Below are positions 5,551 to 52,546 of a stretch of 59,277 nt of DNA, piece after piece. The position numbers were made by a program, and so were the translations under genes. Origin of the DNA: a virus (Duplodnaviria > Caudoviricetes); IMG/VR virus record IMGVR_UViG_3300027969_000114, positions 1 through 59,277 of that record. The stretch is one strand, 5' to 3'. The notes beneath the pieces are model-generated. The model was not told the DNA's origin. It ran no database searches and worked only from the letters and a program-made list of their open reading frames with translations. Position 1 is the stretch's first letter. Every line of letters begins with the position of its first letter.

Positions 5551-6144
5551 TTATTTTGAAAAAATTCTGTTAAATACTGAGTCTTCAATAGAAGACACTT
5601 TGTTTTTTGAAATTCTAAATTGCTTTGGAGCGATTCCCGCTTCTGGATTGTGTGCCAAAGGTTGAGCACCTTCTTCAATAGAAGACATTTCAACTTTTAA
5701 CGATTCGTTTTCCGCTTTTAAAGCTTCGTTTTCTTCTTTGATAGATGAGAACTCTTGACGTAATTTCTCGATCTCAGCAAAGAAAGTTTCTTTAGAAACC
5801 GATTCCACAATACGTTTAGCCTTTGGAGCTTCTTCCGACATCTCTGGAGCTACAACTTCCGCTGGTGCTTCCTCAATCATTGGAGCTTCTTCCTCAACCT
5901 CTTCTGGAGCAATCGAAGCGATAATACCTTCAACCGCTACAACTAAAATGTTTCCATCTTCAAGCTTGTACTCGCCTACGGGCATAGGTACAATTCCATC
6001 AGCCGTTACAATTCCTACCGAGAAATCAGGTGCAAACTCTTCCGCTTCGATAACGGTAATTCCGTCTTCTAACTTCATTTGCGCAAGCTTAATCTCCATA
6101 GAAAGAACTGCCTTAATCTTGTTTAATTTGTTCTTGTATTCCAT
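5551..6144 (-). CDS. Capsid scaffolding protein
   Basis: Acidic, with coiled coil; directly upstream of the capsid gene. Confidence 0.7.
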   Translation of the reverse strand: MEYKNKLNKIKAVLSMEIKLAQMKLEDGITVIEAEEFAPDFSVGIVTADGIVPMPVGEYKLEDGNILVVAVEGIIASIAPEEVEEEAPMIEEAPAEVVAPEMSEEAPKAKRIVESVSKETFFAEIEKLRQEFSSIKEENEALKAENESLKVEMSSIEEGAQPLAHNPEAGIAPKQFRISKNKVSSIEDSVFNRIFSK

Positions 6145-18090: not shown

Positions 18091-18438
18091 TTATAATTTA
18101 GTTATTTCGAAATCTATTCTAGGATTGTCTTTATCGATAAATTTATACATTAGTAATCTATGGCAAAGTCTATCGTTTTCTATTACTCCGCTAGTTTGTA
18201 GGCAATCAAGTATAATCTTTGCAGAATTATCGAGATCGCTTCTATTCGATTGAAAGTAAACGTGTATCTCAATGCTAAACTTTTCTTTGAAAGGCTCATT
18301 CGGTTTTCCTTTTGCCAAAGCAAGTAACCAAGTAAATCGCTTTTCGTATTCCGTAAGCTCTTTAGATTTATAAAGCCTATTGTTTCCAATCTTGTACCCG
18401 TTTGATTTGCTAGGCACTTGCCCAAGTATTGTTATCAT
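18091..18438 (-). CDS. rusA: RusA-family Holliday junction resolvase
   Basis: PSKSN, DLDN..K.ILD.L, IENDR, PRI motifs. Confidence 0.85.
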   Translation of the reverse strand: MITILGQVPSKSNGYKIGNNRLYKSKELTEYEKRFTWLLALAKGKPNEPFKEKFSIEIHVYFQSNRSDLDNSAKIILDCLQTSGVIENDRLCHRLLMYKFIDKDNPRIDFEITKL

Positions 18439-19262
18439 TTTTTATGCTTGGGGTCTAAAATACAAGGAGCGGTATTATTCCATTTTATAGAATGGTGTAA
18501 CCTTGTGTGGTTTGTATTCATCATTGAAACTTTAACTCCGCTAGGGTGCATTAAAACCGAATGAAAGGATTTTACATAAGTTCCGCTTAATGCGTATTCG
18601 TCGGTCATTCCTCCGTTGTTACTTTGTGTATCCTTTTGGTCTAATTGAATATTTGTAAAGGTAAAGAATATATCTCCCCTATTTCCCAAAGAAGTGTAGG
18701 TATTAACATCTTCGTTAATTGATCCTACAAATTGAAACTCTCGATCGGTAGAACATATAAACGAGTTCATACATTTACGCTTTAATTTAATCCCGCTAAA
18801 TCCTCCGATATGGTCTCCTCCCTGTGAGAATGCAATCGATTTAATATTTACGCTCTTATAAAAATCAAGCATTTTTTCAAATACGACATCTAAGTTAGTA
18901 ATTATTTTAGCTCCCGTATCGTAACGATAACCAAAGTAATAGTAGTCATCGTCGAGTTGCATAAAGTATTTAACTCCAATTTCTTTAGCTATTTTAAAGC
19001 AAGCGTTACGAGCGTGAATAATAACTTTACGATTATCGAAGTTATTTCCCTCGTCTACGGAATCAGCCATAGCTTTTTTATCAAATACTTTTACGCTTTC
19101 TTCTCCAAAGTTTGCGATATATTGATTTATGGATTTGTCCTCATTATCGACAATAAAATAAATCTTACCCGTATAACCGCATTTTTTTAAAGTTGAATAA
19201 GTCTTAACGTTATCGGGTCTTCCGTGCGTTAGTATAAATACGGCAAAATTATTGTTCTCCAT
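18435..19262 (-). CDS. GREB1-like/TET-associated (TAGT) glycosyltransferase, predicted DNA modification
   Basis: ILTHGRP, ARN, QLDDDY, NSF, NEDV and GG...Y..YVKS motifs of this GT-A clade. Confidence 0.75.
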   Translation of the reverse strand: MENNNFAVFILTHGRPDNVKTYSTLKKCGYTGKIYFIVDNEDKSINQYIANFGEESVKVFDKKAMADSVDEGNNFDNRKVIIHARNACFKIAKEIGVKYFMQLDDDYYYFGYRYDTGAKIITNLDVVFEKMLDFYKSVNIKSIAFSQGGDHIGGFSGIKLKRKCMNSFICSTDREFQFVGSINEDVNTYTSLGNRGDIFFTFTNIQLDQKDTQSNNGGMTDEYALSGTYVKSFHSVLMHPSGVKVSMMNTNHTRLHHSIKWNNTAPCILDPKHKK

Positions 19263-19650: not shown

Positions 19651-20411
19651 TAGTCTATGGGTTTAATATTTCCATTTTCGTCGAGATATGCCTTAAAGTC
19701 TGCCAAATTTTCAACAAACTCCCGATAACATTGCGATTTACAAGCTATTATTAGTTGTTCTTTGTTATCAAATTTGTTTACAAATGAATTATAAATACGC
19801 TTTTTGTCTTCTACGCTAGTCTCGTAAATTTGAAATTTAACTATGTAATCGTAAAGAACGTGTAAACCTCCAGCTATCCAATTCATTTTAATATTGCGTT
19901 CGTGGCATCTAATCATTTCTTGCGAATACATATTAGCCGAGTTAATCGCTGCCATCTTTAAATCTGCGTCGCTAGGAATTTCTTGAGGTGCTTCTATCTC
20001 TTTTACTACGGTTATTGTTTCTTGTCTAGCGTAATCTATATAAGCCTTCATAATTCTTCCGAAGTATTCACAAGAAAAGTTTTCGTAACATTTTGCATCT
20101 ATTCCAAGTTTACCACTAACCGCCCATTCAAATGCTAATTTGATTTCTTCGGGTGTAACATTGCCAAAATTTGATCTAATAAAATTTAGTAACACAAATT
20201 TCTCTTCTTCGGTAGGCATATTGTTACCTCTAAGCCCTACTAAAACCATTGAATAACGTAAGACTTGCTTAATGTCTTCTTCTTGTCTTAAACGTAAGCT
20301 TTGGGTGCTTTGTGCTTGTAGTATGCTATTAGCTTCGGAGTTACCAATTTTTAAGGGCTTCCATTCTTGCTGCGCTAGTTCCGAGCGGTTGTTTGTCGTT
20401 TGAAGTTCCAT
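19650..20411 (-). CDS. Replication accessory protein (lambda P/helicase-loader position)
   Basis: Overlaps the initiator 3' end; EI.LAFE..V.GKL..CYENFS..Y..RIM.AY conserved with 50784..51542; function by position only. Confidence 0.5.
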   Translation of the reverse strand: MELQTTNNRSELAQQEWKPLKIGNSEANSILQAQSTQSLRLRQEEDIKQVLRYSMVLVGLRGNNMPTEEEKFVLLNFIRSNFGNVTPEEIKLAFEWAVSGKLGIDAKCYENFSCEYFGRIMKAYIDYARQETITVVKEIEAPQEIPSDADLKMAAINSANMYSQEMIRCHERNIKMNWIAGGLHVLYDYIVKFQIYETSVEDKKRIYNSFVNKFDNKEQLIIACKSQCYREFVENLADFKAYLDENGNIKPID

Positions 20412-21057
20412 ATTGTTGTTTAGAATAAATTGTTATTTCGTCGTTAAAGCATTTACCATTTAAATAAGTCAAAGGATTTTTTCGGTATTGAGAATCGGGG
20501 TTTGCATCAACATATTTTTTAACGCTTAAAGTTATTTTATTTATTTCTTCTAAAGTTAATTTATCAAAAATCTTTTCGCATTTAACTCTATCTATTTTCT
20601 TATTATAGGTTTCCCAGAAATACTCAAAATCTTCTATATTATTTACTTTACTTTCTTTTACTTTACTTTTATTTACTTTAGGAGCGTTACTAACGTGTTC
20701 GTTACGTGTTACATTTTCGCTAACTTGTTGATTTTCACGCCATTCCGCAATTCGTTTTGCGTTTTTTTCTTTTGAAACTTGATACTTTTGACTAAAGTTT
20801 AGTAATTGTTTGTTAAAAGTTTCACCATTATTTGTAGAAATCAAATCAATTTCTTCAATAAACTGCCAAACTTTCTCTAATTTCTTACCAACATTTAGCT
20901 GATGCTTTAAGACTTTTGTCTTTATAGGCTTTTCTTGCATTGCAAGCTTTTCCAATATGGTATAAAATAAACCCAAGCCTTCGTAACCATACTCTAGGTA
21001 AAGCTCCGTTATCTTCTCGTCATTAAAAGAACTCGAATCGTGTAGGTAGTATTTCAT
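20341..21057 (-). CDS. Replication initiator (Lin1244/DUF4373-like N-domain, lambda-O-like organisation)
   Basis: HD....D.KI..L...YG.EG.G.FY.ILE N-domain; KVNKSKVKESKVN linker; FE.FW..Y.KK..K..C and P.TYLN C-domain. Confidence 0.75.
   Translation of the reverse strand: MKYYLHDSSSFNDEKITELYLEYGYEGLGLFYTILEKLAMQEKPIKTKVLKHQLNVGKKLEKVWQFIEEIDLISTNNGETFNKQLLNFSQKYQVSKEKNAKRIAEWRENQQVSENVTRNEHVSNAPKVNKSKVKESKVNNIEDFEYFWETYNKKIDRVKCEKIFDKLTLEEINKITLSVKKYVDANPDSQYRKNPLTYLNGKCFNDEITIYSKQQYGTSNDKQPLGTSAARMEALKNW
20641..20713. repeat. Putative origin A inside the initiator gene
   Basis: ACGTGTT at 20693 and 20704 (11-bp period), GTTAC x3, adjacent TTTAC-repeat AT tract. Confidence 0.45.
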
Positions 21058-21065
21058 TTTGAAAT

Positions 21066-21149
21066 AAAAAAAGCCAGTCTGCGTAGGAGTGCAAATCTGG
21101 CTTTGGTTTTTTAACCCTAAAATAACCGAAGAACTCCTACCCCCTTCGC
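21066..21149 (-). ncRNA. Structured cis-regulatory leader RNA of the initiator (complementary loops plus terminator)
   Basis: Hairpin loop GUAGGAGU is complementary to loop ACUCCUAC of a U7-tailed hairpin; stems covary with 52167..52252. Confidence 0.75.
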
Positions 21150-21173
21150 TTATTGTTTCGCAATATAAATAAA

Positions 21174-21440
21174 TTATCTATTCTTGCATAATCTTTTTTC
21201 AAAGATTCCAAAAAAATGCGGAAAATCTTGCTCAAACTTTCTAGCATAATCAGCGGTAAAATTATTGTTTACCTTAAATTGATCGTTGCGTTTAATTTTA
21301 GATTCCCATCTTATTCTTTCAAAAACCGATTTAGCTCCTACTTTAGTTTGTCCAGCCTCTACCATTTCGTGAGTATAGTAAACAAACTCTTTATAAATTC
21401 TAGGATTTCTTTCTTGATATTGTTCGAACGTTTCTTTCAT
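21174..21440 (-). CDS. Conserved phage hypothetical protein
   Basis: NP.IY..F, ERIRW, FKVNNN.TADYARKF; homolog 52277..52546. Confidence 0.75.
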   Translation of the reverse strand: MKETFEQYQERNPRIYKEFVYYTHEMVEAGQTKVGAKSVFERIRWESKIKRNDQFKVNNNFTADYARKFEQDFPHFFGIFEKRLCKNR

Positions 21441-21528
21441 CTTGTCGTATAAGTTTTAGTTTTATGTAATTCTTATTTAGCTCTTTTGCTAAATGTGCTT
21501 GCCATTGATTAAAGGTTATCTTTTCCAT
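21400..21528 (-). CDS. 42-aa micro-ORF (MEKITFNQWQAHLA...)
   Basis: Fills a gap; homolog MKLTFNQWQTHLA starts at 52631. Confidence 0.6.
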   Translation of the reverse strand: MEKITFNQWQAHLAKELNKNYIKLKLIRQDERNVRTISRKKS

Positions 21529-50784: not shown

Positions 50785-51542
50785 TAGTCTATTGCAGATA
50801 TTTTACCTTCTGCTGTTAGGTATGCTTTAAAGTCTGCTAAGTTTTCTACAAATTCCTTGTAACATTGAGCCTTGCAAGCCCAAAGTAGTTCGTCTTTGTC
50901 TTTATATTTAGGCAATAAGGACAAATATATTCTTTTTTTATCTTCCTCGTTTGCCTCATAGATGTTAAATTTTACTATGCTGTCATATAGCGAGTGCAAA
51001 CCGCCTGCAATCCATACCATTTTTATGCTTTTTTCTTGACATCTTATGATTTCCTGAGAATACATATTTGCAATATTTATTGCTGTCATTTTTTGATCTT
51101 CTTCACTTGGGATAGGTGCTACTTCTTCGATCTGTTTTACAACTAATTTAGTCTCTTGCCTAGCAAATTCTATATAGGCATTCATAATTCTACTAAAATA
51201 CTCGCAAGAAAAGTTTTCGTAACACTTTGCATCTACGTTTAGCTTGCCTGCAACAGCATATTCAAATGCTAAAACTATTTCTTTGGCTGTTTGATTACCA
51301 AAATTTGATTTAATAAATTTAAGTAGAACGTATTTCTCTTCTTCTATTGGTAAATTATTGCCTCTTAGCCCTACAAATAACATTGCGTAGCGTAGAGCCT
51401 GCTTTATCTCCTCTTCGTCGCTCTGTCGCAAAGTATGGTGGCTCTGTGCCTCGACAATAGCATTAGCTAGACCGCTACCAAATGTTAAGGCTCGTGATTC
51501 GGTCTTTACTAGTTCCTGTTTTTGCGTTGTTTGAATTTCCAT
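50784..51542 (-). CDS. Replication accessory protein (B)
   Basis: Homolog of 19650..20411. Confidence 0.5.
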   Translation of the reverse strand: MEIQTTQKQELVKTESRALTFGSGLANAIVEAQSHHTLRQSDEEEIKQALRYAMLFVGLRGNNLPIEEEKYVLLKFIKSNFGNQTAKEIVLAFEYAVAGKLNVDAKCYENFSCEYFSRIMNAYIEFARQETKLVVKQIEEVAPIPSEEDQKMTAINIANMYSQEIIRCQEKSIKMVWIAGGLHSLYDSIVKFNIYEANEEDKKRIYLSLLPKYKDKDELLWACKAQCYKEFVENLADFKAYLTAEGKISAID

Positions 51543-52158
51543 TTTGACTAAACTTATTTTTATTTAACATCCACGTTGTAATTCTTCTTTTAATATCAAA
51601 GAACTTTTCCATTTCCCAGCGTTCTTTACCTTTAGGATTTTTTTCTGTCCAATAAGAAAAGAAATTATTGTACTCAGATCCTAAATCATTAGTGTGAGGC
51701 GAAAGCATTTCGCTAAAAGATACTATACTTTCTTTTTCTTTTATTTCATTTACTTTACTTTCCTTTCCTTTCCTTTGTTGAACGGTCGTTGAACGGTCGT
51801 TGAGCAATCGTTTATCGGCCGATGCTTTACCTGCCATTTTACGCTGTTCTTTCATCTTAAAGTAAGGTTCTAAGTAAACTAGCATTTTAGGCGAAAAGAA
51901 CTTTTCTGTTTCGTCTATTTCAAATAATTCGTAGTTACATACACAAACTCTGACTTTTGCCTCTGAGACGCTAAATTCTTCTGCTAATAGGTCTAGGTCG
52001 CTTAGGGGATACATAAGGTCTTGTTGCTCCCTTAATGTCTCTAATAGCATAAAGTATATGCCGTAACCCTCTGTTCCTAGTTCTCTTCTTAATCGCCTAA
52101 TTTTTCGATCGTGTCTTGCATTACAAAAATGCGGGAAATAATACGCTTCTTTTTCCAT
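51475..52158 (-). CDS. Replication initiator, DUF4373/Lin1244-like (B)
   Basis: YFPH..NAR.D.KI..LR...G.EGYGIYFMLLE.L; KGKESKVNE linker. Confidence 0.78.
   Translation of the reverse strand: MEKEAYYFPHFCNARHDRKIRRLRRELGTEGYGIYFMLLETLREQQDLMYPLSDLDLLAEEFSVSEAKVRVCVCNYELFEIDETEKFFSPKMLVYLEPYFKMKEQRKMAGKASADKRLLNDRSTTVQQRKGKESKVNEIKEKESIVSFSEMLSPHTNDLGSEYNNFFSYWTEKNPKGKERWEMEKFFDIKRRITTWMLNKNKFSQNGNSNNAKTGTSKDRITSLNIW
51725..51820. repeat. Putative origin B: 11-bp iterons plus pyrimidine tract
   Basis: GTTGAACGGTC x2 (51777, 51788), then GTTGAGCAATC and GTTTATCGGCC in register. Confidence 0.55.
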
Positions 52159-52166
52159 TTTAAAAT

Positions 52167-52252
52167 AAAAAAAGCCAGCTTGCGTAGGAGTGCAAAACTG
52201 GCTTGGTTGGTTTTTAACCCTAAAATAACCGAAGAACTCCTACCCTCTTCGC
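52167..52252 (-). ncRNA. Structured leader RNA of the initiator (B)
   Basis: Same loops and covarying stems as 21066..21149. Confidence 0.75.
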
Positions 52253-52261
52253 TTATTTATT

Positions 52262-52269
52262 CAAATATA
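52262..52269 (-). promoter_or_regulatory. Sigma-A -7 element TATATTTG upstream of the leader RNA
   Basis: Perfect TAnnTTTG; A has the variant TATATTGC at about 21160..21167. Confidence 0.65.
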
Positions 52270-52276
52270 TAAACAC

Positions 52277-52546
52277 TTATCTAGGTTTACAAGTCCGAAA
52301 CTCAAAATATCCTATGTACTCAGGAAAATCATTTTCAAACTTTCTAGCATAATCTGCTGTATAATTATTGTTTACTTTAAAATCGTCATTGCGATCTATC
52401 TTTGCATCCCATCTGATGCGTTCGCAAATTGCTTTAGATCCTATACTAGTTGCTCTTGAATGTATCGCCTCAAAAGCGTAGTGTACATAGGCTCTATATA
52501 TTAACGGATTTTTTACGTGATACTCTTCGAATGTTAGCTTTTTCAT
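52277..52546 (-). CDS. Conserved hypothetical protein (B)
   Basis: Homolog of 21174..21440. Confidence 0.75.
   Translation of the reverse strand: MKKLTFEEYHVKNPLIYRAYVHYAFEAIHSRATSIGSKAICERIRWDAKIDRNDDFKVNNNYTADYARKFENDFPEYIGYFEFRTCKPR

What the first reader, a model, noticed from the sequence alone, without database searches (positions are those of the whole stretch)
21066..21170. Candidate novel RNA switch gating the replication initiator (kissing loops plus terminator)
Seen (minus-strand transcript, both genomes): a sigma-A-type promoter, then hairpin 1 CGAAG(G/A)..GUAGGAGU..UCUUCG, a possible middle hairpin (GGUU..AACC), then hairpin 3 AAGCCAG..UUGC-ACUCCUAC-GCA..CUGGCUU plus U7, ending 8 nt before the initiator ATG. 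The two 8-nt loops are exact reverse complements and identical in A and B. Stem differences preserve pairing (G-U to A-U in hairpin 1; U-G/U-A swaps in hairpin 3), although the downstream initiators are strongly diverged. Known analogies: the repZ pseudoknot of IncI1/ColIb-P9 plasmids, pT181 attenuation, and the P4 CI / P1 C4 immunity RNAs. Inference: loop-loop pairing in cis, or in trans from the short terminated RNA, sets read-through or translation of the replication operon. This could give RNA-only copy control or immunity in phages with no visible repressor or integrase. I do not recognise it as a named family.
Basis: partly seen in the sequence, partly recalled or inferred. Interest (0 to 1): 0.85.

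Follow-up and report, generated by a model that had tools for sequence, protein, structure and literature searches.

The report
Self-kissing terminator leader before phage replication genes
Just upstream of the replication-initiator gene, these uncultured freshwater phages carry a short folded RNA whose first hairpin tip base-pairs with the tip of its own transcription-stop hairpin, a pairing that related phages keep through matched mutations, so it is a real, uncatalogued RNA control element whose mechanism is still untested.

Summary
Each copy has a promoter-like box, a 5' hairpin, a small A-loop hairpin and a canonical intrinsic terminator. The terminator's U-tract ends 8 nt before the initiator ATG. 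The two 8-nt loops are exact complements.

I collected 67 distinct relatives from IMG/VR without using the loops. A 7-bp loop-loop helix is Watson-Crick in 67 of 67. Its three central pairs covary across five loop classes, and both stems covary as well (0 of 500 shuffles reach the observed score). A second architecture, with loop order swapped, keeps the same rule with seven further loop pairs.

Rfam 15 gives no match. In 66 of 95 elements the downstream gene is a replication initiator, from three unrelated initiator families. Neither flank tracks loop class, and no extra target sites exist.

The promoter box is the Bacteroidota type (TAnnTTTG), not a classical -35/-10. The middle hairpin is conserved but unproven.

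The mechanism is inferred only: the loop contact gates read-through into the replication genes, possibly with feedback from the short terminated RNA. No RNA data were available.

This scan has already found the same design on other DNA several times.

The parts
21160..21167 (-). Genome A: promoter-like -7 box TATATTGC (relaxed form of the Bacteroidota TAnnTTTG box), 6 nt upstream of the outer stem
   Evidence: Read. A box at this place is exact (TAnnTTTG) in 67 and relaxed in 27 of 95 family elements. Promoter activity was not tested.
21121..21154 (-). Genome A: hairpin 1. Outer stem AAUAA/UUAUU, G.G mismatch, stem CGAAGG/UCUUCG, 10-nt loop GGGUAGGAGU
   Evidence: MFE fold. RNAalifold predicts it de novo. 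10 of 11 pairs show changes on both sides and 98.9% of cells are paired in 67 sequences.
21133..21140 (-). Genome A: loop-1 word GUAGGAGU, the 5' partner of the loop-loop helix
   Evidence: The 7-bp core pairs in 67 of 67 relatives, with 3 covarying positions.
21105..21116 (-). Genome A: small middle hairpin GGUU-AAAA-AACC
   Evidence: Folded. The sequence is conserved but hardly varies (helix 3), so it is unproven as a helix.
21071..21103 (-). Genome A: intrinsic terminator hairpin. Outer stem AAGCCAG/CUGGCUU, bulged A, inner stem UUUGC/GCAGA, 8-nt apical loop
   Evidence: 98.0% of cells are paired and 5 pairs change on both sides. A U-G pair in 44 of 67 sequences marks this strand as the folded one.
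21083..21090 (-). Genome A: terminator apical loop ACUCCUAC, the 3' partner of the loop-loop helix
21066..21072 (-). Genome A: U7 tract of the terminator. It ends 8 nt before the initiator ATG (21057).
20341..21057 (-). Genome A: replication initiator gene (238 aa), the gene the leader precedes
   Evidence: Pfam Lin1244_N, E = 2.2e-5. PHROG 270 / 2562, replication initiation protein.
21174..21440 (-). Genome A: conserved 88-aa gene upstream. This is context, not a part of the RNA.
   Evidence: PHROG 13625, unknown function. It was used as a loop-independent anchor. It does not track loop class.
52262..52269 (-). Genome B: -7 box TATATTTG (exact TAnnTTTG)
52224..52257 (-). Genome B: hairpin 1 (CGAAGA/UCUUCG, A-U where A has G-U), with loop word GUAGGAGU at 52236-52243
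   Evidence: R1 hit of 105.5 bits.
52209..52219 (-). Genome B: middle hairpin GGUU-AAA-AACC
   Evidence: by reading the sequence.
52167..52204 (-). Genome B: terminator hairpin (52204-52172) with apical loop ACUCCUAC (52184-52191) and U7 (52173-52167). It ends 8 nt before the ATG at 52158.
51475..52158 (-). Genome B: replication initiator gene (227 aa), 27% identical to A's
   Evidence: Pfam Lin1244_N, E = 4.6e-14. PHROG 2562. Comparison with A.

Best explanation
The element is a promoter-proximal leader RNA of about 90 nt, one per phage genome. It acts as a gate in front of the replication genes.

Shown:
- The folded strand is the gene strand.
- A 5' hairpin and a canonical intrinsic terminator are conserved through compensatory changes.
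- Seven nucleotides of the hairpin-1 loop are always the Watson-Crick complement of the terminator's apical loop, in at least 12 different letter pairs.
- The U-tract ends 0-23 nt (8 nt here) before the next start codon. That gene is usually a replication initiator, of any of three unrelated families.
- The loop words have no other partner in the phage DNA examined.

Inferred:
- Polymerase starting at the TAnnTTTG box, or arriving from the upstream early genes, mostly stops at the terminator and releases a short RNA.
- The fraction that reads on into the replication genes is set by the loop-loop contact.

My preferred version has two steps. First, on the nascent chain, loop 1 captures the terminator loop as it emerges. 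This hampers the terminator and allows read-through. Second, as terminated RNA accumulates with genome copy number, its free loops occupy the nascent loops in trans. Two molecules can close a double-kissing dimer with short linkers. Termination is then restored.

This would give protein-free negative feedback on replication-gene expression. It would also act on any co-infecting phage with the same loop letters. The direction of the effect (the contact favouring read-through versus favouring termination) is the least certain step.
For: Structure and covariation:
- In 67 distinct type-1 sequences found by loop-independent criteria, 97.5% of cells are paired against 85.7% in shuffles.
- 18 pairs change on both sides, and 0 of 500 shuffles reach the observed score.
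- Sliding the 3' partner by 1-3 columns drops pairing to 34-49%.
- The kissing core is 7 bp in 67 of 67. Central pairs are AU35/GC23/CG9, GC51/AU16 and GC60/UA5/AU2, with no G-U, no one-sided change and no mismatch.

Independent ascertainment:
- A covariance model built on nested stems only gave 63 hits of at least 83.9 bits, 42 of them distinct. All 42 have at least 7 nt of loop complementarity.
- A loop-free DNA pattern gave 66 distinct segments. All 56 complete family members among them have 7-8 nt of complementarity.

Strand: forward hits score at least 83.9 bits and reverse hits at most 28.3 bits. A U-G pair is present in 44 of 67 sequences.

Other architectures obey the same rule. The type-2 form has a 5-bp hairpin with a 14-nt loop, plus a long terminator, and uses seven further loop pairs. 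L014 and L015 also comply.

Position:
- 66 of 95 downstream ORFs are initiators from three families: Lin1244_N, HTH_36/PHROG 428, and PHROG 6251.
- The gap from U-tract to start codon is 0-23 nt.

Self-contained system:
- Loop class is independent of the upstream 88-aa protein. L001 and L002 differ at 1 of 88 residues yet belong to different loop classes.
- Loop class is also independent of initiator family.
- Own-class loop words are not enriched elsewhere: 0.227 versus 0.217 and 0.120 versus 0.113 per locus, over 619 kb.

Complementarity stops exactly at the loop edges (flanking G.G and U.C, read). This is a kissing contact, not a classical antiterminator.

No protein candidate: no Q-type antiterminator, integrase, resolvase or HTH_3 domain in the window.

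Duplex energies of the loop pairs fall in a narrow band, -8.9 to -12.4 kcal/mol, with one exception at -6.7.
Against: - No transcript data exist. The promoter, the RNA 3' end, the short RNA itself and any read-through are all inferred from sequence.
- Covariation cannot tell intramolecular from intermolecular pairing.
- A kissing contact leaves both stems intact, so it is not obvious that it weakens a terminator. The sign of the effect is a guess.
- The five type-1 loop classes differ also in the adjacent inner stems. They may be old lineages kept by ordinary compensatory evolution rather than specificities under diversifying selection.
- 29 of 95 elements precede small genes of other kinds rather than an initiator: a membrane protein, an HNH endonuclease, a methylase and others.
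- The phage looks virulent, which removes the prophage-immunity setting of the closest known analogues.
Confidence: 0.55

Rival explanations
1. Cis-only structural module. The loop-loop helix forms within one molecule and simply locks a compact fold. This fold would make the terminator more efficient, or protect the 3' end of early transcripts or the short RNA from exonucleases. Nothing is sensed, and the element is a constitutive insulator between the early and replication modules.
For: - The spacing between the two loop words is tightly kept: 42-44 nt in type 1 and about 45-48 nt in type 2. This fits a geometric constraint within one molecule.
- The outer terminator stem and U-tract are nearly invariant and canonical.
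- No other target sites exist.
- Cis kissing loops of several base pairs are known in riboswitches (recalled, not checked here).
Against: - A promoter-like box sits directly upstream of the element rather than downstream. This is the wrong order for a simple terminator-then-promoter insulator.
- There is no room for another promoter between the U-tract and the start codon (gap 0-23 nt), so the essential replication genes must depend on read-through.
- A continuous 7-bp kissing helix stacked between two roughly 12-bp stems is hard to close with a 17-nt linker. This is my own geometric estimate, not a computation.
- A purely structural role does not explain why one phage uses two different loop pairs at two elements (L249).
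Confidence: 0.2
2. Stand-alone small RNA. The terminated RNA is itself the product. Its position before the replication genes would be incidental to the gene order.
For: - It has its own promoter-like box and its own terminator.
- Two mutually complementary loops on one RNA is the design of self-assembling RNAs such as phi29 pRNA (recalled).
- Natural RNA-only multimers are reported in bioRxiv 10.1101/2024.12.08.627333 (search listing and start of abstract only).
- Short RNAs released at phage promoter-proximal terminators can become regulators, as StxS does (PMC7547250, abstract).
Against: - The element is glued to the next start codon in all architectures.
- It is found before initiators of three unrelated families. 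This argues for a cis link to the downstream gene.
- Downstream genes have no room for a promoter of their own.
- Host targets could not be searched because the host is unknown.
Confidence: 0.1
3. Factor-dependent antitermination. A phage or host protein, or a small ligand, recognises the kissing complex or one hairpin and releases the terminator, in the manner of BglG/LicT-type or Q-type systems or a riboswitch.
For: - The layout of promoter, short leader, strong terminator and then essential genes is the classic antitermination layout.
- G(G/U)GU at the start of loop 1, and the G.G mismatch under hairpin 1, are nearly invariant. These could be protein contacts.
Against: - Type 1, type 2, L014 and L015 share architecture but almost no sequence. 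That is unlike a ligand pocket or a sequence-specific protein site.
- Loop class tracks neither neighbouring gene.
- The window has no Q-type antiterminator domain.
- Nothing competes with the terminator stem, so there is no mutually exclusive fold (reading).
Confidence: 0.1
4. DNA-level element. The inverted 8-mers would be half-sites for a dimeric DNA-binding protein, or hairpins of single-stranded DNA at a replication origin next to the initiator gene.
For: - Phage origins often lie in or next to the initiator gene (general knowledge).
- Inverted repeats whose letters differ between related phages resemble operator or iteron specificities.
Against: - Each half-site sits in the loop of its own covarying hairpin.
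- G-U pairs, including U-G in 44 of 67 at one position, would be A.C on the other strand.
- The covariance model scores at least 83.9 bits on one strand and at most 28.3 on the other.
- A U-tract terminator and a promoter-like box frame the element.
- Loop class does not follow initiator family.
Confidence: 0.03

Closest known systems
Satellite phage P4 immunity: CI RNA (seqB) pairing with seqA and seqC in the leader of the replication operon
   Same: - The regulator and its complementary targets lie on the same sense transcript, upstream of the replication genes.
- RNA-RNA pairing controls premature transcription termination.
- No protein repressor is needed.
(Passage in PMC4825925; primary papers recalled from its reference list.)
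   Different: - P4 makes CI by processing a longer transcript, and it has two target sites flanking the regulator.
- P4 works in a lysogen.
- Here there are exactly two partners, both hairpin loops, and one of them is the apical loop of an intrinsic terminator.
- No third site exists, and the phage shows no lysogeny genes.
- No sequence or structure match to any Rfam family, at E-values up to 10.
P1/P7 C4 antisense RNA (immI; Rfam C4)
   Same: A sense-encoded RNA is complementary to sites further along its own transcript. Matched changes on both sides create different specificities (P1 versus P7). This is recalled, not checked here.
   Different: C4 blocks a ribosome-binding site. Here the partner is a terminator loop at least 20 nt upstream of the start, and no complementarity reaches the start region. 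No Rfam C4 match.
Countertranscript-driven attenuation of rep genes in pT181, pIP501 and pAMbeta1
   Same: A leader with an intrinsic terminator sits just before the replication-initiator gene. Kissing-loop recognition by a small RNA whose amount reports copy number decides termination (recalled).
   Different: - Those small RNAs are antisense, made from the opposite strand.
- They switch the leader between mutually exclusive folds.
- Here both partners are on the sense strand, and no alternative fold competes with the terminator.
- No conserved TAnnTTTG box faces the element on the opposite strand in A or B (one search list).
IncI-alpha / IncB / IncL-M rep leader pseudoknot (repZ, repA)
   Same: A hairpin loop in the rep leader pairs with a distant complementary word, and this controls initiator synthesis (recalled).
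   Different: - There, the partner lies next to the rep ribosome-binding site and activates translation.
- There, a leader peptide and an antisense Inc RNA take part.
- Here, the partner is the terminator loop, and the leader has no ORF of 40 aa or more.
- No start-proximal site is found here.
Lambdoid PR' - 6S RNA - tR' unit released by Q; StxS small RNA
   Same: A promoter is followed within about 100-200 nt by a strong intrinsic terminator ahead of a large operon. The short terminated RNA can itself be a regulator (PMC7547250, abstract).
   Different: The lambdoid unit needs the Q protein and has no self-complementary loops. No Q-family domain is present in the window. Here the unit precedes replication genes, not late genes.
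   Same: ColE1 has fully paired 7-nt loop-loop helices. In pRNA, two complementary loops on one RNA covary among related phages (recalled).
   Different: ColE1 partners are antisense transcripts that control primer formation. pRNA is part of the packaging motor. Neither involves a terminator loop or sits before an initiator gene. No Rfam match.
Catalogue of about 8,500 candidate structured RNAs from IMG/VR (DNAVirus_X; PMC10690425)
   Same: It mined the same data source by covariation. 1241 of its candidates contain predicted Rho-independent terminators (passages). This element or a part of it may be among them.
   Different: The main text never mentions kissing loops (0 occurrences) and does not describe this element.

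Membership tests
Any Rfam 15 family (including C4, IsrK/seqA-like, pRNA, known leaders and riboswitches) | Covariance-model match at the family's gathering score | tested here: not met
   0 matches over the whole window. 0 matches over 10 loci carrying the other variants. In a permissive scan of 20950-21300 the best E-value was 0.33, with all bit scores far below their cut-offs.
P4 CI / P1-P7 C4 type sense-encoded immunity RNAs | Regulator and complementary target on the same sense transcript, changing together between relatives | tested here: met
   Both loop words are on the minus strand, 42 nt apart. They are paired in 67 of 67 relatives through 3 covarying positions.
P4 CI / P1-P7 C4 type sense-encoded immunity RNAs | Further target site(s) downstream: seqC, or a site at the ribosome-binding site | tested here: not met
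   No own-class word beyond chance in the 60 nt after the U-tract (77 elements), nor elsewhere in 619 kb.
P4 CI / P1-P7 C4 type sense-encoded immunity RNAs | Regulator released by processing; acts in a lysogen | not testable with these tools
   No RNA data. The window has no integrase, resolvase or HTH_3 domain, and no close prophage was found in 185,579 species genomes.
Countertranscript-driven attenuators (pT181 type) | Intrinsic terminator in the leader directly before the rep gene | tested here: met
Countertranscript-driven attenuators (pT181 type) | Antisense RNA from the opposite strand, and mutually exclusive leader folds | tested here: not met
   Complementarity is sense-to-sense and ends at the loop edges. 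The MFE and the alignment fold show no competitor of the terminator. No TAnnTTTG box on the plus strand faces the element in A or B.
IncI-alpha/IncB rep leader pseudoknot | Loop pairs with a word adjoining the rep ribosome-binding site; leader peptide coupling | tested here: not met
   The partner is the terminator loop. There is no start-proximal site and no ORF of 40 aa or more in the leader.
Lambdoid Q-dependent late leader (PR'-6S-tR') | Q-family antiterminator encoded by the phage | tested here: not met
   PF06530 and PF03589 give 0 matches in the window. Unrelated antiterminators cannot be excluded.
Riboswitch | Conserved ligand pocket plus an expression platform with alternative folds | tested here: not met
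   The variants share architecture but almost no sequence. No alternative fold was found.
Bacteroidota sigma-A promoter | -7 box TAnnTTTG, with -33 TTTG about 19 bp upstream | tested here: inconclusive
   The box is exact in 67 and relaxed in 27 of 95 elements, at a fixed distance from hairpin 1. TTTG or TTG at the -33 place occurs in 40 of those 67. Genome A has only the relaxed form. The consensus itself is recalled. No transcript start data exist.

The most novel reading that the evidence does not exclude
This would be a protein-free, address-coded feedback switch.
- The roughly 90-nt terminated leader accumulates with phage genome copy number.
- It kisses nascent leaders of the same loop letters in trans, forming double-kissing dimers.
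- It thereby decides whether polymerase stops or enters the replication genes.
- Phages would thus count their own genomes, and shut down co-infecting relatives of the same address, by RNA alone.
- The dozen or more natural loop pairs would be mutually orthogonal addresses.
- This would be a new class of sense-RNA attenuator, widespread in aquatic Bacteroidota-type phages, and a ready-made set of orthogonal RNA regulators.
Probability: 0.27. Interest if true: 0.9.

Novelty: new variant of a known kind. Interest (0 to 1): 0.8.

Why it matters
Gene regulation in phages of Bacteroidota is almost uncharted, and RNA-only control of phage replication is known from very few systems (P4, P1/P7).

This element is a compact, abundant RNA: 67 distinct type-1 and 17 distinct type-2-like sequences were seen here. 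It has unusually clean evidence for a long-range loop-loop contact involving the tip of an intrinsic terminator. It sits before the replication genes whichever initiator family the phage uses.

If the contact gates read-through, that would show how apparently repressor-less phages time or limit replication. It would add a new way of tuning intrinsic termination, through the terminator's loop rather than its stem. It would also supply natural orthogonal RNA pairs for synthetic biology.

The hypothesis is directly testable with loop and compensatory mutants.

Tried and rejected
- RNA evidence: no RNA holder was listed for window 20900-21450. I therefore did not lay reads, and expression remains untested.
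- Isolated phages: there was no DNA match to the 1.2-kb region or to the 113-nt element in 50,697 phage records. Relatives of the 88-aa protein in Polaribacter phages Danklef_1 and Freya_1 lie in tightly packed genes with no such leader.
- Bacterial genomes: only 5 distant relatives of the 88-aa protein (32-52% identity) were found, so the host is not identified that way. One of these, L215, a MAG contig, does carry a type-2-like element.
- Shine-Dalgarno idea: loop 1 contains AGGAG. However, 0 of 80 ORFs of at least 80 aa have an SD-like 4-mer upstream, against 181 of 2000 random positions. The other loop classes also lack AGGAG. Rejected.
- Other occurrences of GTAGGAGT in the window (7495, 21594, 38007, 55496) lie inside coding sequence (Val-Gly-Val codons). 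They are not at matching places in A and B. I treat them as chance.
- Extra targets elsewhere in phage DNA: none found.
- Classical sigma-70 promoter: 8 matches against 9.7 expected, so not informative.
- TAnnTTTG count over the whole window: 114 against 83 expected. This is only a weak host clue.
I did not use that set for loop statistics.
- The first 32-sequence alignment (A2) had been picked with a 7-mer complementarity filter. Its fully paired loops are therefore partly by construction. I replaced it with the loop-independent set A4.
- When building A4, a trimming regex on the hairpin-1 loop dropped 5 segments, all unrelated terminators. I also removed 2 further unrelated terminators (L223, L228) by hand.
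- The MAFFT alignment of the 17 type-2-like sequences (A5) misaligns the loops. I gave no pair counts for type 2, only the per-sequence complementarity, which were found with a complementarity filter.
- No tRNA genes in the window.
- Paper searches found no description of this element.
- The supplements of PMC10690425, which may list it as an unnamed candidate, were closed.
- The preprint 10.64898/2026.09.22.753630 is not held.
Full report
**What the window is.** The 59,277-bp record holds two related phage genomes of about 29.5 kb, one after the other. Genome A runs from 1 to about 29,501 and genome B follows it. Long stretches are 70-92% identical at offsets of 29-32 kb. Nearly all genes are on the minus strand. 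I found no tRNA gene. I also found no tyrosine integrase, serine recombinase or HTH_3 domain and no Q-type antiterminator. None of 80 ORFs of at least 80 aa has a Shine-Dalgarno-like 4-mer upstream, against 181 of 2000 random positions. The 20 nt before starts are 79% A+T. Together with the conserved TAnnTTTG box described below, this points to a Bacteroidota host. That consensus is recalled knowledge and the host is not proven. DNA runs that hold the stretch are labelled freshwater or aquatic metagenomes.

**The observation.**
- On the minus strand of A, the stop codon of a conserved 88-aa gene (21174-21440) comes first.
- It is followed by the box TATATTGC (21167-21160).
- Hairpin 1 (21154-21121) has an outer AAUAA/UUAUU stem, a G.G mismatch, the stem CGAAGG/UCUUCG and the loop GGGUAGGAGU.
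- A small hairpin GGUU-AAAA-AACC lies at 21116-21105.
- The terminator hairpin (21103-21071) has an 8-nt apical loop ACUCCUAC.
- U7 lies at 21072-21066, and 8 nt later the ATG of the initiator gene (20341-21057).
- B has the same layout at 52269-52167, with its ATG at 52158.
- The loop words are exact reverse complements and identical in A and B.
- The A/B stem differences keep pairing.
- The element is 86% identical between A and B, while the initiators share only 27% identity over 147 aa.
- The single-sequence fold gives the three hairpins: -30.6 kcal/mol, z = -3.2.

**Relatives, collected without using the loops.** I used three routes.
- The 88-aa protein served as an anchor. 15 and then 80 IMG/VR loci were kept, out of 172 that encode a relative.
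- A covariance model (R1) was built from nested stems only. Over 96 sources it gave 63 hits of 83.9-117 bits on the gene strand. The next best hits, at most 28.3 bits, were the reverse strands of the same places. These hits comprise 42 distinct sequences, and all 42 have at least 7 nt of perfect complementarity between the two loops.
- A DNA pattern covering only the end of the middle hairpin, the outer terminator stem and the U-tract gave 66 distinct segments. Of these, 56 are complete family members, all with 7-8 nt of loop complementarity. Nine are unrelated terminators and one is cut by a contig end.

**Covariation.** The union, 67 distinct sequences, was aligned as A4. One search lists the rows that were dropped.
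- 97.5% of cells form standard pairs, against 85.7% in column shuffles.
- 18 of 31 pairs change on both sides.
- 0 of 500 shuffles reach any of the observed measures.
- Sliding the 3' partners by 1-3 columns drops pairing to 34-49%.
- Hairpin 1 has double changes at 10 of 11 pairs, and the terminator at 5 of 12.
- The loop-loop helix is paired in 67 of 67 sequences at each of 7 positions.
- Its two outer pairs on each side are invariant.
- Its three central pairs covary: AU 35 / GC 23 / CG 9; GC 51 / AU 16; GC 60 / UA 5 / AU 2.
- The helix contains no G-U, no one-sided change and no mismatch.
- The 8th pair, present in A and B, holds in 39 of 67. In 13 of the 67 that base is C and can pair locally with a G to extend hairpin 1.
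- RNAalifold predicts hairpin 1 and the terminator on its own.
- A U-G pair present in 44 of 67 sequences would be A.C on the other strand. The folded strand is therefore the gene strand.
- The five type-1 loop classes are GUAGGAG(U), GUGAGAG, GUCGGAG(U), GUGGUAG and GUGGAAG.

**Other architectures with the same rule.**
- Many loci carry a different leader after the same kind of box. It has a 5-bp hairpin with a 14-nt loop and a long interrupted terminator hairpin.
- In this form the pyrimidine-rich word comes first and its complement sits in the terminator's apical loop.
- The word pairs are CUCACUAC/GUAGUGAG, UCUCUCAC/GUGAGAGA, CUUCUCAC/GUGAGAAG, GUUCUCAC/GUGAGAAC, GAUCUCUCA/UGAGAGAUC, GGUCUCA/UGAGACC and CUACAAC/GUUGUAG.
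- Two more diverged leaders, L014 and L015, use CGUAGGA/UCCUACG and ACGUGGAAC/GUUCCACGU.
- These variants were recognised with a complementarity filter, so they illustrate the rule rather than test it.
- One contig, L249, has a type-2-like element before an early gene. It also has a type-1 element, with different loop letters, before its replisome-organizer and helicase genes.
- Loop duplex energies lie between -8.9 and -12.4 kcal/mol, with one at -6.7.

**Context.**
- A TAnnTTTG box precedes the fold at a fixed distance. It is exact in 67 and relaxed in 27 of 95 elements with enough upstream sequence.
- The U-tract ends 0-23 nt before the next ORF.
- Of 95 elements with a downstream ORF, 66 precede a replication initiator or organizer. 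These come from three unrelated families: Lin1244_N / PHROG 2562-270 (53), HTH_36 / PHROG 428 (8) and PHROG 6251 (5).
- The rest precede small genes of various kinds.
- Loop class follows neither flank. The 88-aa proteins of L001 and L002 differ at one residue, yet their loops belong to different classes. Each initiator family is found with several loop classes.
- Own-class loop words are not enriched elsewhere in 619 kb of 75 loci, nor in the 60 nt after the U-tract.
- Each loop's only partner is therefore the other loop, either in the same molecule or in another copy of the same RNA.

**What it most likely does.**
- The layout is promoter-like box, about 90 nt of folded RNA, a canonical terminator, then an essential gene with no room for its own promoter. 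This means the replication genes depend on read-through.
- The one feature conserved across all architectures besides the hairpin and the terminator is the loop-loop complementarity.
- That complementarity stops exactly at the loop edges and competes with no stem. It is therefore a kissing contact, not a classical antiterminator.
- Because sequence is free while architecture is fixed, a ligand pocket or a sequence-specific protein is unlikely.
- I therefore read the element as an RNA-only gate on read-through (confidence about 0.55).
- The simplest variable that such a gate could sense without any other factor is the concentration of its own terminated product. That product carries both loops and can close a double-kissing dimer with a nascent leader. 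This trans step, and the sign of the effect, are inference (about 0.27 for the full feedback model).
- Rivals are a constitutive cis fold (0.2), a stand-alone self-assembling or host-directed small RNA (0.1), factor-dependent antitermination (0.1) and a DNA-level site (0.03).

**Comparison with known systems.** There is no Rfam 15 match, for the window or for the variant loci.
- The nearest in logic is P4 immunity. There the CI RNA pairs with seqA and seqC of its own transcript and stops transcription before the replication genes (passage in PMC4825925). P1/P7 C4 is similar (recalled). The present element differs in several ways: it has just two partners, both are hairpin loops, one is the tip of an intrinsic terminator, there is no third site, and there is no lysogeny setting.
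- pT181-type attenuators share the terminator-before-rep layout but use antisense RNA and alternative folds.
- The IncI/IncB pseudoknot contacts the start region, which is not the case here.
- The lambdoid PR'-6S-tR' unit, and StxS derived from it (PMC7547250, abstract), share the promoter-proximal terminator but need Q.
- A role for terminator loops of small RNAs in regulation has been reported in E. coli (PMC11979758, abstract). According to that paper's section heading, it probably works without base-pairing.
- A catalogue of about 8,500 candidate structured RNAs from IMG/VR (PMC10690425; passages) may contain this element as an unnamed entry.
- Four literature searches found no description of the element.

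**Earlier notes of this scan.** A word search of the scan's own notes shows that the same design has been reported at least seven times on other DNA. The design is a hairpin loop complementary to the tip of a terminator, before phage replication or early genes.
- One lake-water phage leader of about 105 nt, with about 80 related copies, is probably this same family.
- These are AI notes, not independent evidence.
- I tested one of their leads here, a third site at the start codon, and did not find it in this family.

**Verdict.** The element is a new, well-supported RNA family. It is a new variant of the known kind "RNA-RNA pairing that controls replication genes", and its mechanism remains open.

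Noticed in passing
window 1-29501 versus 29502-59277: The record is two related phage genomes of about 29.5 kb in tandem, 70-92% identical in long stretches. IMG/VR classes it as one linear virus record of 100% completeness. It may be an assembly join of two co-occurring strains or a true concatemer. I did not test which.
   Followed up: no
window 18435-19262 (-): A TET-associated glycosyltransferase domain (Pfam TAGT, E = 7e-36) lies three genes downstream of the initiator in genome A. This hints at a hypermodified DNA base. The scan already holds a note on it.
   Followed up: no
window 21174-21440 (-) and 52277-52546 (-): The 88-aa protein upstream of the leader (PHROG 13625, unknown function; invariant NNN-TADYAR motif) has relatives in Polaribacter, Mesorhizobium, Acinetobacter and mycobacterial phages. 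It is a very widespread small phage protein with no assigned role.
   Followed up: partly
L155-L157, L164-L169, L171, L175, L177-L179, L184, L186, L193, L204-L205 (first ~70 nt after the 88-aa gene): In these relatives the same kind of TAnnTTTG box is followed by a single G+C-rich hairpin without a U-tract (for example GGGCCGGUC-AUGUAG-GCUGGCCC), and then by a small gene. The kissing-loop leader lies 0.6-1.3 kb further on, before the replication gene. The function of this simpler 5' hairpin is unknown.
   Followed up: no
L249:2302-2408 and L249:~5703-5810: One phage contig carries two leaders of this design with different loop letters: CUACAAC/GUUGUAG before an early 168-aa gene, and GUAGGAGU/ACUCCUAC before the replisome-organizer and helicase genes. 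This is consistent with loop letters serving as separate addresses within one genome.
   Followed up: partly
L047 and L056 (minus and plus strand, around the pattern match): These unrelated viral contigs hold a dense array of direct repeats of (U)GUAGGAGU, at least seven copies within about 110 nt. It looks like an iteron or binding-site cluster and is not a member of this RNA family.
   Followed up: no
window, all minus-strand ORFs of at least 80 aa: No ORF (0 of 80) has GGAG, GAGG or AGGA within 18 nt upstream of its first ATG, against 9% of random positions. This marked avoidance of Shine-Dalgarno-like words fits a Bacteroidota host.
   Followed up: partly
L215 (genome contigs, MAG contig labelled Candidatus Peribacteria): This 36-kb MAG contig carries a relative of the 88-aa gene followed by a type-2-like kissing-loop leader (GGUCUCA/UGAGACC) and a DUF3850/ASCH gene. 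It is probably a phage contig binned with the MAG, so the label is not a reliable host clue.
   Followed up: no
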